A DNA stretch of 64,000 nucleotides from Octopus vulgaris (lineage: Eukaryota): positions 84,568,001 through 84,632,000 of the forward strand of contig OX597825.1 of the NCBI GenBank assembly GCA_951406725.2, written 5' to 3'. Of the stretch, positions 21,001 to 33,000 are shown one piece after another; the stretch's first letter is position 1, and each line of letters starts with the position of its first letter. Made by a program: the position numbers.

Positions 21001-24000
21001 CGAAATGGCCATAAATGCTACATCAAAAGACATGCAGCAGAAACACGTGTCAGGTTAGGATTTTAATGTGAATTTAATGAGAATAATACTATAATAAACA
21101 AACTATTAACATGTATACTTCTCCATTCTTCTTCATTATGTCTATCTATCTATCTTTCTTTCTATCCCATCCATCCATCCAACCATCCGTCTATTTATCT
21201 ATCTATCTATCTATTTATTTAGATTTGTTAATACTTTAAAATTACCGTGTTGTGGCACTACTGGGGTACAGCCTTTAAAGATATAGTTTATTATACTGAT
21301 CATAGGAATGGAGTAAATTAGAACATGTCTAATCTGTTTATGAATGAGACTTGTTCCTTCGAGACAAGAGGAGCAGAAAGATCACGAAAAACATCGACTT
21401 GTAAATAACAGTCACACATTTTTGTAACCTCAGTGGTTAAATTTAAAAGGGTAGTTATATAAATGACGCACTCTGTATACATATTGGTACAAGCGCATAC
21501 TCACTCACTCATACTAATGCTCACAAATATACTTGCACATAGTATCAAAAGAATGAGCTTGATCGTCTCTCGGTTTCAACGCTAAGCTACTTTCATATGT
21601 CATTCTGCATAAAAAATGGATCTACAAATACAATATCCCTACATATGTTTCATCTATTTTCTTTCCTCCATCACACTCTCTATTTTGTATCCTATCTAAA
21701 CTATTACTTAACCATCCTCTCTGATGAAGAGATATTATTAATAAATATCCTGGAAACAGCTGTAAAGCCTTCTATCTATAAATGTTCTATCTACAGAGCA
21801 TTGGTTTTTTATCGCATTACGCAAAAAATTCTTATATATAATACATTTGTTTATTTGTACTCCACCTGCCTTCGTCTTTTGTTTATTTTCGTAAACATTC
21901 CCGTTATATATATATGTGTATACAGAGAGAGAGAGAGAGAGAGAGATTTAAATGTGCATATGAATATATGTTTGTGCATGGACATAAGCAATTTGAAGAC
22001 CATTGTTCCATTGTAAACATCCCGACTCGTCACACACATATATAGAGATAAATTTAGCACATACACTTATATTTATGTCTTCACAAACGCAGGCGCAAAC
22101 ACATCGCACGTCTATAGGTCCCCAAAAGCAAGCAAGCGCGGACGCAGACGCACACCCACTCATCCACAATCACAATCACACATGTTTATTCATTTAGAAA
22201 GGATGTACAGGCGTTTATACTTCCGCATGCTTCCTCACACATACAAATACATACCCATATACATATACACATAATGCTTTGAAGTATGTTTTCTAAATTT
22301 TCTCTTGTTCATATGCTGGGAATTCCGCCCAAACCTCATCAAGTGGCGATGAAATAAGGTGCCAATAAAGACCCACTTTATTACACATATACTACCAAAA
22401 AACAAAACAATACAAAAGCCTGGATCAAAAAGGTGTGAGTAGTGCGCTGGATCTGATGTTTCCATATATTGATGTACGGCCTGCTTCTTATTCTATGACA
22501 ATTAACAGAACTGAAGGTTATGTCAACCGATCTGTTATGAGCTGAATCACAAATCACTGCTTTTGAAAAATGTTGATCGATAAGCTAGTAATTCAATATT
22601 TATATCGTTATTTGCTAGTACGGGGATGATATTTAATATTGTTATTATATTTCCCAATCTTTCTATCCAACAATATTACATATTAAATTAAAAGGTGTTT
22701 GTGTTTGTATTAGAAAACAATATTTTATCCGAGAATGGTAAAATCAAGCATTAAATTTCATTTCCTTTCAGAAATAATTAAATTTCTTCAAGAAACACAA
22801 TTTACTTGTAACCAAAGAATTTAAAGAATTGAAATCTCAGAATTCATGAGATATTTCGATATGTTCATTCGTTTTCATAACTTTCTATTTTTGTTGTTGT
22901 TCTTTTCGTCATTTTCTCAGAGGAAGAATTACATTACTTATGGTTTTATAAATTTGAAGGCTTCGAAAATTGGAAGGAGAAAGACAGGAAATCATGCTGA
23001 AATAGGAAACCTGACCCAGTTGTTTGCCAAGAATGAGGAACTCTGCTAGGAATAGACAAGGAACATAGAATGGTGTTCAACTGGCGAAAATGTCTGCAAA
23101 TTAATATCTCAGAATACACAGCTAACAGTATGAATGTATAAATATATGTAGACATGTGTATGTGTATATATATATATATATATATATTAATTTATTATAT
23201 AGAAGGAGCTTCTACAGGACTAGTACTGTTTCATTCAAGAGAAATCTTCAGGAAGCTATTTAACAAGAATTGTATTAGCATTTATACATTTAGGCAGGTT
23301 TAAAGGAGTGGTGGTGGGGGACTTTTTTGGGGGTAGGCATAGCGCAAAATATCATACTTGGGGGAGTGGTCAAGGAGTCAGTGGTAAGTTAGATGAAAGA
23401 ATAGATAAATAAAAAAATAAAATAATAAAATAAAAAAATAAAAAAATAAAAAAATAAAATAATAAAAAAATAAAAAAATAAAAAAATAAAAAAATAAAAA
23501 ATATATATAAAAAATATATATATAAAAAAATATATATATAAAAAAAAGGGGGGATAGAGTTATAGGTAAATAAGGAGATTCTCACTTGTACCTATACACA
23601 CATGTATACGTATCTACACACATATATATACTCATATATATATACACATATATATATATATATACACATATACATATATACACATATACATACATATCTA
23701 CATACACACATACATACACCCGCCCACATATACAAATTTATACACATGCACATGCATATACCTGTCTACACATACACACACGTATATATGCATACACTCA
23801 CTCCCATGCATGCACGCATACACACATGTATACATATACACACGACCACACATACATATATACACAGAAAAATATATATTCATACGCACATACACTCATG
23901 CACACACAACACACCTAGTTCCCTATATACACATATTTACACCTATATATACATACACCCACATACACATATGTACATATATATATATATACATATATAT

Positions 24001-30000: not shown

Positions 30001-33000
30001 AATTAAAATTAGGGAATGGGCCTGTATTGGATTGTATATATATATATATATATATATATATATATATATGTATGTATGTGTGTATGTGTAGGTATGTATA
30101 GGTACACATGTGTATGTGTGTGTGTATGTATATGTGTATATGTATGTATGTGCACACATGTATATATATGTATGCGTGTATATGTATATATATATATATG
30201 TATATATATATATATGTACATATGTGTATGTGGGTGTATGTATATATAGGTGTAAATATGTGTATATAGGGAACTAGGTGTGTTGTGTGTGCATGAGTGT
30301 ATGTGCGTATGAATATATATTTTTCTGTGTATATATGTATGTGTGGTCGTGTGTATATGTATACATGTGTGTATGCGTGCATGCATGGGAGTGAGTGTAT
30401 GCATATATACGTGTGTGTATGTGTAGACAGGTATATGCATGTGCATGTGTATAAATTTGTATATGTGGGCGGGTGTATGTATGTGTGTATGTAGATATGT
30501 ATGTATATGTGTATATATGTATATGTGTATATATATATATATATATGTGTATATATATATGAGTATATATATGTGTGTAGATACGTATACATGTGTGTAT
30601 AGGTACAAGTGAGAATCTCCTTATTTACCTATAACTCTATCCCCCCTTTTTTTTATATATATATTTTTTTATATATATATTTTTTATATATATTTTTTAT
30701 TTTTTTATTTTTTTATTTTTTTATTATTTTATTTTTTTATTATTTTATTTTTTTATTTTTTTATTTTTTTATTTTATTATTTTATTTTTTTATTTATCTA
30801 TTCTTTCATCTAACTTACCACTGACTCCTTGACCACTCCCCCAAGTATGATATTTTGCGCTATGCCTACCCCCAAAAAAGTCCCCCACCACCACTCCTTT
30901 AAACCTGCCTAAATGTATAAATGCTAATACAATTCTTGTTAAATAGCTTCCTGAAGATTTCTCTTGAATGAAACAGTACTAGTCCTGTAGAAGCTCCTTC
31001 TATATAATAAATTAATTTTACTCTGCTATGTATTGAGTACCTTACTTACTGTGGTTAACCCCGAATCAACCCGGGACCTATATATATATATATATATATA
31101 TATATATATATATATATACGTACATATATATATATATATATATATATATATATATATATATATATATATATATATATATATATATATACGTACATACATA
31201 TATATATATATACGTACATATATATATATATATATATATACATATGTGCGTGTGTACGTTTGTGTGTCTGTGTTTGTCCCCCCAATATCGCTTGACAATC
31301 GATGGTGGTGTGTTTACGTCCCCGTAACTTAGCGGTCCGGCAAAAGAGCCCGATAGAATAAGTACTAGGCTTAGAAAGAATAACTCCTGATGTCGATTTG
31401 CTCGACTAAAGGTGGTGCTCTAGCATGGCCGCAGTCAAATGACTGAAACAAGTTCAAAGAGTACACACACACAAACACAAACACACACACACAAATATAT
31501 CTTTATATATAAAAGTGAAGTTGTGTGTCTGTCTCCTACGATTTAGATTCCTAACTACTCCCACATTTTGCGGTGCAGTTTAACCAAAACCGGGTATCTT
31601 ATAGTCGTGATTCATATCGAGGTCTTCTGGTTATTAGCGCGCGTCTACGATGAGTCTACGATTAAAAAAAAATTTACCATCATTTTTTCCATTTTAATGC
31701 ATTTTTTCGCTATTATATAAGGGAAGTAACTCTTTAAAAATGTTTACGATGAGTCAACGATGAAAAAAAGAATTTACCATCATTTTTTTCCATTTTAATG
31801 CATTTTTTTGCTATTTTTTGGCTATAACTCTCTAAAAATGCTTATATAGTTATTTCCCTTATAAACCCGAGCAACGCCGGGCGATACTGCTAGTATATAT
31901 ATATATACACATATGAGAAATATTGGTACCCAGAGGATCCAAGTTGGCAGGTAAGGCTATGTAAGTGCTATGGAAGGACCGTAGTTAAAATCTCGATTAG
32001 CTAATGATATGAGTGAGGAGACGTGTGTGAGAATGTATATGTTAAATAAAACGAGACAACAAAGCAAAGGCTGTGTGGAATAAAGAGAAAGGCAGTCTTA
32101 CAGCTGTTTCTGAGATATTAGGGATATCCCTTCATCAGTGACGGTTAAATATAGGGAAATAATAGAGTTCAGTTTGAGGAGTTATTTTGGAAAATGAAGC
32201 AAATAAGAAGTATATAGGGAAATAGGGGAATGGATGTAGAAATAGAAATAAAAATGTATAAAGATGTTATAGTTGCCGCCCTATGATTCAAGGAAAGTGC
32301 TGTGTAGAAGTGGTAGAAATGATTCCTGTCCGTGGTACGTAAATTTCAATATCCCAAATATCCCAGAAACAATTGTAAGACTAACTTTCTCTTTATAAAT
32401 ATCCTGAAAATTCCACACAGCCTTGATTTTGTTGTCTCATTTTATTTAACACACACACACATATAAGTACATAAGTACATGTGTATAGTCTTAAGTAGAT
32501 ACACTCATATGTGCCTGCATGCTAACGATAAACTAGACGCGTGCATGTGCCTGTGAGATAGAAAAAGAGAGGGAGACAGAGAGAGTGATTCAGAGAGAGG
32601 AAGATAAATATGTACGAATGAGAGTAAGTGTATGGTGAAATGGGCGTATGATAGGAAGAGAGAAAGAGGAAGAGAGAGAGAGAGAAGCGGACATATAGAT
32701 AGATATGTTTCTTTATTAGCCACACAGGGCTGCACACAGACAGGACAAATTACAAGGTAGAGCTTTTCTTTTGGGGATAAGAAAGGGGGTTTGGTTTTCG
32801 ATCAAAAGGGATCGTAATATAGATAAGTAGACTGACAGATAGATTGGTTTATATTATTTTACGAACGGAACGTATACGCAAACTGGCACACACACGTGCA
32901 CGAACTTACACGCATCCACACACATACACACACTCATGCAACCGAAAATACATGTATATCTGAATATATATATATATATATATATATATATAAATATAAA

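What the first reader, a model, noticed from the sequence alone, without database searches (positions are those of the whole stretch)
23186..31080. Young Penelope-like element whose multi-kb terminal region is built from microsatellites and forms a ~2.5 kb near-perfect inverted repeat
Seen: the RT/GIY-YIG ORF is followed by a ~3.7 kb 3' region (26872 down to 23186) that is mostly degenerate CA/TA repeat with a few unique islands. Its distal 2.5 kb is present again inverted at the 5' truncation point. The arms differ mainly in repeat lengths plus a few substitutions (e.g. 24441). Known: PLEs often insert as 5'-truncated copies with an inverted pLTR, but described pLTRs are usually a few hundred bp. 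Inference: this family carries kilobases of apparent 'microsatellite' as cargo and spreads it by retrotransposition, so part of this genome's simple-repeat load may be element-borne. A read-through transcript would also fold into very long dsRNA (ADAR/RNAi substrate).
Basis: partly seen in the sequence, partly recalled or inferred. Interest (0 to 1): 0.8.

Follow-up and report, generated by a model that had tools for sequence, protein, structure and literature searches.

The report
Truncated Penelope-like retroelement with inverted partner
This is a dead, recently inserted Penelope-like retrotransposon of the 'Hydra' type, in the head-to-head inverted layout these elements often make; its long repeat-rich tail is unusual in size, but nothing here shows that the family spreads that tail.

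Summary
Arms 23186-25854 and 31016-28542 are inverted copies with 2447 matches and 7 mismatches.

Between the arms lies a minus-strand reverse transcriptase plus GIY-YIG endonuclease reading frame (28475-26873). It lacks about the first 185 residues and has two frameshifts. Its motifs fit the Hydra clade of Penelope-like elements as described by Craig et al. 2021.

An inverted 5'-truncated partner beside the 5' end is the published Penelope-like layout, and the left outer end abuts (TA)11. What is unusual is a 3.7-kb 3' tract in a clade described as generally under 3 kb.

The tract is about three quarters degenerate TG/TA repeat. It includes a 212-bp higher-order repeat and four unique islands, each followed by a (TA)n run.

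Whether the family carries this tract, or whether it is read-through or host flank, cannot be settled from one locus; no other copy lies in the window. Repeats carried by Penelope elements (penaeid shrimp) and small RNAs from inverted Penelope copies (Drosophila) are already in print. Interest is modest.

The parts
23165..23186 (.). (TA)11 run directly abutting the outer end of the left arm. It is the presumed target microsatellite at the 3' junction of the main copy.
   Evidence: A random window position lies within 3 bp of an end of a (TA)>=8 run 1.2% of the time.
23186..25854 (-). Left arm: the distal 2669 bp of the 3' region of the main copy.
23213..23251 (-). Hammerhead-like motif 27-65 nt from the 3' terminus, mirrored at 30951-30989 (+). 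Both conserved core boxes are present. A 6-bp helix I and a 2-bp helix III are possible, helix II is weak, and there is no G10.1-C11.1 pair. A sense-strand AATAAA starts at 23196.
   Evidence: The descriptor search gave 6 matches against 0.08 expected in the window. Rfam gave no hammerhead hit at E<=10. The fold z-score was 0.29.
23405..23546 (.). A-rich 8-bp tandem repeat, 17 copies, within the terminal island. The arms differ here by one 8-bp unit.
24156..24480 (-). Unique island present in both arms, with (TA)17 on one side and (TA)8 on the other. It holds two sense-strand AATAAA sites. It may be an older nested insertion.
24824..25342 (.). 212-bp higher-order repeat built from degenerate CA/TA sequence (2.5 copies, 90% matches), mirrored at 28857-29351. 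It is older than the arm duplication.
25346..25557 (-). 212-bp segment found only in the left arm, sitting inside a (TA)n run. It is either an insertion after the duplication or a deletion in the right arm.
25855..26872 (-). Single-copy proximal 3' region. It has about 90 nt of unique sequence after the stop codon, TG/TA-like tracts, and a unique island at 26285-26510 with three AATAAA sites. That island is followed by (AT)7 at 26271-26284.
26873..27502 (-). GIY-YIG endonuclease piece (P0002, 209 aa), matching profile positions 508-702 of 706. All 16 invariant family residues are kept.
27445..27549 (-). Third-frame bridge peptide that marks two frameshifts between the RT and EN pieces.
   Evidence: profile positions 492-507; E = 2, weak but in the right place.
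27507..28475 (-). Reverse-transcriptase piece (P0001, 322 aa), matching profile positions 186-495 of 706. It is 5'-truncated.
28476..28541 (.). Filler of about 66 bp at the head-to-head junction. It has no match in the window or to the family profile.
28542..31016 (+). Right arm: an inverted 2475-bp copy of the distal 3' region. It is read as the 5'-truncated inverted partner copy.
31017..31078 (.). 62 bp of unique sequence between the right arm and the next (TA)n. It may be the one-sided 'tail' extension described for these elements, or it may be host DNA.
   Evidence: The tail concept comes from passages read.
31079..31465 (-). (TA)n and CA-rich tail, followed by the body of a SINE-like dispersed repeat. 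It is 83% identical to 3061-2674, and there are further partial copies.

Best explanation
A single, recent, non-autonomous insertion of a Hydra-clade Penelope-like element.

Proposed mechanism (inferred, following the published model): the GIY-YIG endonuclease nicked a (TA)n tract, and reverse transcription was primed on the 3' end of an element RNA. That RNA carried, downstream of the reading frame, a 3.7-kb TG/TA-rich tract. One cDNA stopped inside the RT domain; this is the main copy, running 28475 down to 23186. A second cDNA of the same 3' end was primed from the other strand, or made by template switching, and stopped 2.5 kb in; this is the inverted partner, 28542-31016. The two were joined head to head with about 66 bp of filler.

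The result is a 7.8-kb unit whose two outer ends are both element 3' ends.

Shown: the element's identity, the truncation, the frameshifts, the geometry, the (TA)11 junction and the arm identity.

Inferred: the priming model, and that the tract was on the RNA template. The tract could be a standing feature of this lineage. It could equally be read-through into the source locus's flank that ended at the AATAAA 8 nt from the terminus.
For: Element identity:
- The RT piece has 581 relatives with E<=0.001 among longer proteins, the best at 56% identity.
- The EN piece has 5797 relatives, many of which place it at the C-terminal end of proteins of about 700 aa.
- A profile built from 60 near-full-length relatives matches at positions 186-495 (E 4e-125) and 508-702 (E 2e-54).
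- The EN piece holds the CxCX5C linker, the CxxC before the conserved E, and the CxH after the conserved N. It has no conserved Cys pair inside the GIY-YIG core. These are the features Craig et al. 2021 list for Hydra (section 11 read whole).
- Relatives carry nearly invariant R-W and D-K-T columns.
- Pfam GIY-YIG matches 10 of 38 family members.

Geometry:
- An inverted 5'-truncated copy adjacent to the 5' end is the described layout for these elements.
- The arm's inner end lies within about 66 bp of the frame's truncation point.

Target: the left outer end abuts (TA)11, and almost all Hydra families are reported to insert into (TA)n.

Terminus: a hammerhead-like motif and an AATAAA sit in the last 70 nt.

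The 212-bp arm-specific segment shows that the arms are two separate physical stretches.
Against: - Hydra elements are described as generally under 3 kb. Most of the near-full-length relatives of about 700 aa listed sit on contigs of 2-3 kb. A 3.7-kb 3' region is therefore atypical.
- Rfam finds no hammerhead at E<=10. The motif lacks the G10.1-C11.1 pair that Cervera and de la Pena 2014 call highly conserved, and its fold is no more stable than shuffles.
- The right outer end is 62 bp away from (TA)n, a distance expected by chance 10.9% of the time.
- No target-site duplication can be read.
- No second copy of any part lies in the window.
- The RT assignment is weak at the sequence-library level. 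Pfam RVT_1 scores 15.3 bits against a cut-off of 29.6 and matches 1 of 40 members. PDB profile searches found nothing significant.
- The island at 26285-26510 has three AATAAA sites and a following (AT)7. It could mark a shorter canonical 3' end.
Confidence: 0.62

Rival explanations
1. The tract 23186 to about 26780 is host DNA, not element sequence. A short 5'-truncated Penelope-like cDNA inserted into, or was captured next to, a repeat-rich host region. During or after integration, the free 3' end switched template onto the nearby flank, or folded back. It copied 2.5 kb of host flank in inverted orientation up to the (TA)11 run.
For: - The clade is short, and unique 3' sequence runs only about 90 nt after the stop codon before TG/TA-like sequence starts.
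- The tract looks like accumulated genomic debris. Its 212-bp higher-order repeat units are about 10% diverged while the arms differ by 0.3%. Its islands are mutually unrelated and each is followed by a (TA)n run. One demonstrable later indel lies in a (TA)n.
- (TA)n is self-complementary, which makes it a plausible stop or switch point.
Against: - The inverted copy starts within about 66 bp of the element's 5' end. For an independent rearrangement that is a coincidence.
- The layout is exactly the published Penelope-like one.
- The repeat blocks in the tract (650, 1900 and 350 bp) are far longer than the other 17 blocks in the window, which are all 450 bp or less.
- The hammerhead-like motif and an AATAAA lie at the shared outer end.
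Confidence: 0.2
2. Assembly artefact. The inverted arm would be a fold-back or chimeric read product, or a second haplotype of the same tract joined in the wrong orientation.
For: - The arms differ the way haplotypes or noisy repeat calls differ: repeat-unit indels, 7 substitutions and one 212-bp indel.
- Craig et al. note that such structures trouble assemblies.
Against: - There are no N runs, so the structure lies within one contig.
- The palindrome has a 2.7-kb unique spacer rather than a point of symmetry.
- There are no 1-bp homopolymer differences between the arms across 14 runs of 6 or more.
- The junctions fall where Penelope-like element biology predicts them.
Confidence: 0.07
3. A DNA element with 2.5-kb terminal inverted repeats that captured a retroelement fragment, or a pre-existing palindrome into whose centre the retroelement inserted.
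For: Long inverted termini with a short AT-rich flank on the left.
Against: - The window holds no transposase reading frame.
- No matching target-site duplication is seen, and the two flanks differ.
- The spacer is asymmetric. The extra 1 kb (25855-26872) continues the same-strand TG/TA tract of the left arm.
Confidence: 0.03

Closest known systems
Hydra clade of C-terminal EN+ Penelope-like elements (Craig, Yushenova, Rodriguez and Arkhipova 2021, PMC8557442; section 11 read whole, other passages read)
   Same: A single reading frame with RT followed by a C-terminal GIY-YIG. It has the CxCX5C linker and the CxxC and CxH motifs around the conserved E and N, and no CCHH. Relatives carry DKT and RW motifs. 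One junction is in (TA)n. An inverted 5'-truncated partner is present.
   Different: This copy runs 5.3 kb from its truncation point to its 3' end, against 'generally short (<3 kb)'. No canonical hammerhead is found by Rfam. The N-terminal diagnostic motifs are missing because of the truncation.
Recently transposed Penelope copies carrying internal simple repeats in penaeid shrimp (Yuan et al. 2021, PMC7878876; passages read)
   Same: The idea that a Penelope-type retroelement carries simple repeats that move with it. That paper also reports repeat elongation and new insertions after transposition.
   Different: That claim rests on several copies more than 98% identical with syntenic repeats; here there is only one locus. 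The host of this window is unknown. The shrimp paper does not describe a multi-kb tract or a 2.5-kb inverted arm in the passages I read.
Rearranged Penelope copies with long inverted repeats that yield siRNAs (Drosophila; PMC3681739, passages read)
   Same: Inverted Penelope sequence acting as a source of double-stranded RNA.
   Different: That work is experimental, on a different clade, and the arms there are element body rather than a repeat-rich tail. No RNA data exist for this window.
L1 3' transduction and twin priming (recalled; not checked in any call)
   Same: Read-through past the element's own end can carry flank along. Priming from both nicked strands gives inverted 5' parts.
   Different: Twin priming inverts without duplicating the 3' end, whereas here the same 3' end is present twice. 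The enzyme family also differs.

Membership tests
Penelope-like elements, Hydra clade | RT followed by a C-terminal GIY-YIG endonuclease in one reading frame | tested here: met
   A profile of 60 near-full-length relatives matches the RT piece at positions 186-495 and the EN piece at 508-702, in order on the same strand. Pfam GIY-YIG matches 10 of 38 EN-family members, though not this copy itself. The frame is broken by two frameshifts.
Penelope-like elements, Hydra clade | CxCX5C linker upstream of GIY-YIG, in place of CX2-5CxxC | tested here: met
   C63, C65 and C71 of P0002 are invariant or nearly invariant in alignment A2.
Penelope-like elements, Hydra clade | [quoted passage not shown] | tested here: met
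   No conserved Cys lies between Y84 and Y99. C163, C166, E169, N182, C191 and H193 are conserved and present.
Penelope-like elements, Hydra clade | N-terminal RWK motif and DKT in place of DKG | tested here: inconclusive
   This copy lacks the region because about 185 residues are missing. Its relatives carry nearly invariant R-W and D-K-T columns.
Penelope-like elements, Hydra clade | Reverse-transcriptase catalytic motifs | tested here: met
   D74 and the Y168-R169-D170-D171-G172 block are invariant in 40 of 40 sequences. Library support is weak: RVT_1 scores 15.3 bits against a cut-off of 29.6 and matches 1 of 40 members. The PDB profile search gave no significant hit.
Penelope-like elements, Hydra clade | Insertion into (TA)n | tested here: met
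   The main copy's 3' end abuts (TA)11, with a chance expectation of 1.2%. The other outer end is 62 bp from a (TA)20, with a chance expectation of 10.9%.
Penelope-like elements, Hydra clade | Canonical hammerhead ribozyme in the terminal repeat | tested here: inconclusive
   No Rfam hammerhead hit was found at the gathering score or at E<=10. A descriptor match lies at 23213-23251 and its mirror, with 6 window matches against 0.08 expected, but helix II is weak. Rfam also misses the better-formed motif at 54575, so its silence carries little weight. The paper's supplementary file that lists the Hydra hammerheads could not be read.
Penelope-like elements, Hydra clade | Short element, generally under 3 kb | tested here: not met
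   The 3' region alone is 3687 bp. The paper says 'generally', so this is a typical trait rather than a strict criterion.
Penelope-like elements (general) | Pseudo-LTR architecture: a partial tandem and/or an inverted 5'-truncated copy next to the 5' end | tested here: met
   The inverted partner is present. No direct partial tandem was found.
Simple-repeat-carrying retroelement family (as in penaeid shrimp Penelope) | Several near-identical copies at different loci sharing the same internal repeat pattern | not testable with these tools
   The window holds no second copy, and no eukaryotic genome collection was available.
Type I / minimal hammerhead ribozyme | Conserved core boxes, a G10.1-C11.1 pair closing helix II, and a palindromic helix III/loop 3 (Cervera and de la Pena 2014) | tested here: not met
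   The core boxes are present. Position 10.1/11.1 would be U opposite U, and helix II has only 3 bp by my reading of the match. The fold z-score is 0.29.

The most novel reading that the evidence does not exclude
A Hydra-clade lineage whose transposing unit really includes a 3'-terminal tract of 3 kb or more, made of degenerate TG/TA repeat, a 212-bp higher-order repeat and nested passengers. Each integration would then seed up to two copies of it, because the integration mode doubles the 3' end in inverted form. The endonuclease targets (TA)n, so every copy would also lay down new (TA)n landing pads for itself and its relatives. The 212-bp segment sitting in one arm's (TA)n would be such a later hit. 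That would be a self-reinforcing route to a repeat-rich genome.
Probability: 0.27. Interest if true: 0.55.

Novelty: new member of a known kind. Interest (0 to 1): 0.3.

Why it matters
If the tract is element-borne, this locus would be a concrete, dissectable example of how a retroelement that targets (TA)n can also export kilobases of simple repeat. Yuan et al. 2021 leave that question open in their own words ('How did TEs carry SSRs?'). As it stands, the locus is a well-preserved example of the inverted integration product of a little-studied Penelope-like clade. It is useful for annotating that clade and for warning repeat maskers that a 7.8-kb 'microsatellite palindrome' can be a single insertion.

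Tried and rejected
1. By eye, the filler 28476-28541 read on the + strand seemed to hold a DKT-like motif, which would have made it an inverted scrap of the missing N-terminus. The family profile gives no hit there at E<=10, so I dropped the idea.
2. Rfam found nothing at gathering score in the whole window. It found no hammerhead in 22800-31400 among the 150 best of 283 listed matches, nor in 25370-25580, 26285-26510 or 23170-23400. The many mir-297-type rows are repeat noise far below their gathering scores.
3. ARAGORN found 0 tRNA genes in the window.
4. PDB sequence-profile searches with the RT and EN alignments gave nothing significant; the best E-values were 0.18 and 0.26.
5. Structure prediction was not accepting jobs, so no fold comparison of the RT or EN was made.
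The host stays unknown.
7. The supplementary archive of Craig et al. 2021, which lists Hydra families and their hammerheads, could not be read. It may bear on the hammerhead and length criteria.
8. The segment 25346-25557 contains both hammerhead core boxes, but Rfam gives no hit and helix II pairs poorly by my reading. I do not call it a ribozyme.

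
Full report
WHAT IS THERE

The window has no N. blastn of 22500-27000 against 28000-32000 gives one dominant inverted alignment, 23186-25854 with 31016-28542. It spans 2693 columns with 5 mismatches and 12 gap openings; the repeat finder shows the same pairing in pieces.

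A global alignment of the two arms has 2447 matches and 7 mismatches. Its gap runs are 8, 2, 4, 2, 2, 2, 4 bp in one arm and 2, 2, 2, 212 bp in the other, plus one at the edge. The small indels are whole repeat units.

The 212-bp gap is a real extra segment in the left arm (25346-25557). It has unique sequence and sits inside a (TA)n run, where the right arm has a single (TA)28. The unique islands of the arms are 100% and 99.7% identical. The inverted repeat is therefore real and far beyond what repeat-on-repeat similarity gives; unrelated TG/TA tracts in the same search pair at only 70-80%.

THE CODING ISLAND

On the minus strand, 28475-27507 (P0001, 322 aa) and 27502-26873 (P0002, 209 aa) are open in two different frames. 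P0001 has 581 longer relatives with E<=0.001. The best is 56% identical, and most of the 120 listed are proteins of about 600-720 aa on contigs of 2-3 kb. P0002 has 5797 relatives in the exhaustive search, many of which place it at the C-terminal end of proteins of about 700 aa. None exceeds 48% identity, so no copy of this very family is in those protein sets.

I built a profile from 60 relatives of 680-730 aa; 76 such proteins were on hand and I took the first 60 by id. It has 706 positions. It matches the RT piece at 186-495 (E 4e-125), a 16-residue stretch in the third frame at 492-507 (E 2, weak but exactly in place) and the EN piece at 508-702 (E 2e-54). It matches nothing else in the six-frame translation of the window better than E 1.5.

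The copy therefore lacks about 185 N-terminal residues and carries two frameshifts between 27549 and 27445. The left arm has 14 homopolymer runs of 6 or more, and none differs by 1 bp from the right arm. I therefore think the frameshifts are real rather than read errors.

WHICH FAMILY

Craig et al. 2021 (PMC8557442; section 11 read whole, other passages) define the Hydra clade of Penelope-like elements by the following traits:
- a C-terminal GIY-YIG;
- no CCHH;
- a CxCX5C linker;
- DKT in place of DKG, and an RWK motif;
- insertion into (TA)n in almost all families;
- readily detected hammerheads;
- length generally under 3 kb;
- aquatic invertebrate hosts.

P0002 keeps all 16 invariant columns of a 38-sequence alignment. 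These include C63, C65, P72, C77, the Y...Y-x-G...R...H core, C163, E169, N182, C191 and H193; C71 and C166 are nearly invariant and also present.

In the 40-sequence RT alignment, D74 and the Y-R-D-D-G block are invariant, and the relatives show nearly invariant R-W and D-K-T columns in the part this copy has lost. Pfam's GIY-YIG model matches 10 of 38 EN-family members.

Library support for the RT is thin. RVT_1 scores 15.3 bits against a cut-off of 29.6 for this copy and matches only 1 of 40 members. The PDB profile searches gave nothing significant. I file the element under Hydra on the motif evidence.

THE LAYOUT

Read on the element's sense strand (minus), the order is:
- (TA)n and 62 bp of unique sequence;
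- the inverted copy of the distal 2.5 kb (31016 to 28542);
- about 66 bp of filler;
- the truncated RT/EN frame;
- 1.0 kb of single-copy 3' region;
- the 2.7-kb distal 3' region;
- (TA)11.

Both outer ends are thus the same element 3' end. [quoted passage not shown]

The left outer end abuts (TA)11. A random position in the window, taken outside the composite, is that close to an end of a (TA)>=8 run 1.2% of the time. The right outer end is 62 bp from a (TA)20, which is the tail of a SINE-like dispersed repeat. That distance alone is unremarkable, at 10.9%.

THE 3' REGION

Purine/pyrimidine-alternating blocks cover 2900 of its 3687 bp. The blocks measure 650, 1900 and 350 bp, and all are G+T-rich on the sense strand. 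The 17 such blocks in the window outside the composite are all 450 bp or less.

The tract is not plain microsatellite. It holds a 212-bp higher-order repeat (2.5 copies, 90% matches) that is mirrored in the other arm and is therefore older than the duplication.

It also holds four unique stretches that are not similar to each other. On the sense strand each is followed by a (TA)n or (AT)n run, and five of the six sense-strand AATAAA sites of the 3' region lie in three of these stretches. The sixth site lies 8 nt from the terminus. The segment found in only one arm shows that (TA)n runs inside the tract gain or lose such pieces.

HAMMERHEAD

Rfam finds no hammerhead. A descriptor made of the two conserved core boxes and a GUH site matches six times in the window, against 0.08 expected from shuffles. 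Matches in the two arms are the same motif, 27-65 nt from the terminus. The other three loci (21721, 32099, 54575) belong to a short dispersed repeat with a long helix II and a palindromic helix III. That is the minimal type described for Penelope-like elements by Cervera and de la Pena 2014 (PMC4209133, passages read).

Rfam misses those as well, so its silence is weak evidence. The arm motif lacks the G10.1-C11.1 pair, has only a 3-bp helix II by my reading, and folds no better than shuffles. I rate it inconclusive.

INTERPRETATION

The geometry, the (TA)n junction and the family identity make a single Penelope-like integration event the best reading. The confidence of 0.62 covers the version in which the arms come from the RNA template.

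Three things cannot be decided from one locus:
(a) whether the tract is a standing part of this lineage;
(b) whether it is read-through from the source locus, with the canonical end perhaps near 26285, where an island with three AATAAA sites meets (AT)7;
(c) whether it is local host flank copied in inverted orientation by a template switch during integration.

Reading (c) requires the rearrangement to start within about 66 bp of the element's 5' end, which favours a link to integration in any case. An assembly artefact is unlikely given the 2.7-kb unique spacer and the 212-bp difference between the arms, but only reads can exclude it.

COMPARISON WITH WHAT IS KNOWN

Retroelement-borne simple repeats are in print. 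Yuan et al. 2021 (PMC7878876, passages read) report Penelope copies more than 98% identical whose internal repeats 'translocated along with the TE', with later elongation and new insertions.

Double-stranded RNA and siRNAs from inverted Penelope copies are reported for Drosophila (PMC3681739, passages read).

The new points here are the clade (Hydra) and the scale: 2.5-kb arms and a 3.7-kb tract in a clade described as short. I searched the paper library four times. In the listings and passages I read, I saw no description of a Hydra-clade element with a multi-kb repeat tail. That is not proof that none exists.

LEFT OPEN

- The host species.
- The family's copy number and canonical ends.
- Read support for the inversion.
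- The RT and EN folds.
- Any RNA evidence.

Noticed in passing
window 21601-21838 (+), 54496-54750 (-), 55175-55435 (+), 32034-32145 (-): A short dispersed repeat of about 240 bp carries a minimal hammerhead-like motif with both core boxes, a 7-bp helix II and a palindromic helix III. Rfam does not call it. Two copies form an inverted pair (54526-54692 and 55225-55391, 90% complementary, 532 nt apart). They look like Penelope-like terminal repeats or retrozyme-type non-autonomous units.
   Followed up: partly
window 31246-31465 (-), 2674-3061 (+), and partial copies near 5749-5896, 7801-7969, 19705-19824, 47267-47524, 48953-49048, 49164-49287, 59356-59441: A SINE-like dispersed repeat whose 3' side runs into a CA-rich and then a (TA)n tract (83% identity between the two longest copies). 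Much of the window's simple repeat is attached to such tails. ARAGORN sees no tRNA in it.
   Followed up: partly
window 25346-25557: A 212-bp segment present in only one arm and embedded in a (TA)n run. It shares a 34-nt stretch with the neighbouring 212-bp higher-order repeat, and it is the same length as that repeat's period. It could be an insertion, a deletion or an unequal exchange.
   Followed up: partly
window 37304-37798 (+): An open frame with the HTH domain of Mos1-type (mariner) transposases (Pfam HTH_48, E 5e-10). Its closest proteins are 62-64% identical over 40-45% of the query. It is probably a decayed mariner-like element.
   Followed up: partly
window 14661-14972 (+): A very weak match (E 2.4) of the Hydra-type profile to positions 88-148, around its D-K-T motif. 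It could be an old fragment of another such element or plain noise.
   Followed up: no
whole window: Perfect (TA)>=6 runs cover 4.0% of the window, and purine/pyrimidine-alternating blocks cover 15.4%. No host gene was recognised among the 18 longer non-repeat frames scanned with Pfam.
   Followed up: partly
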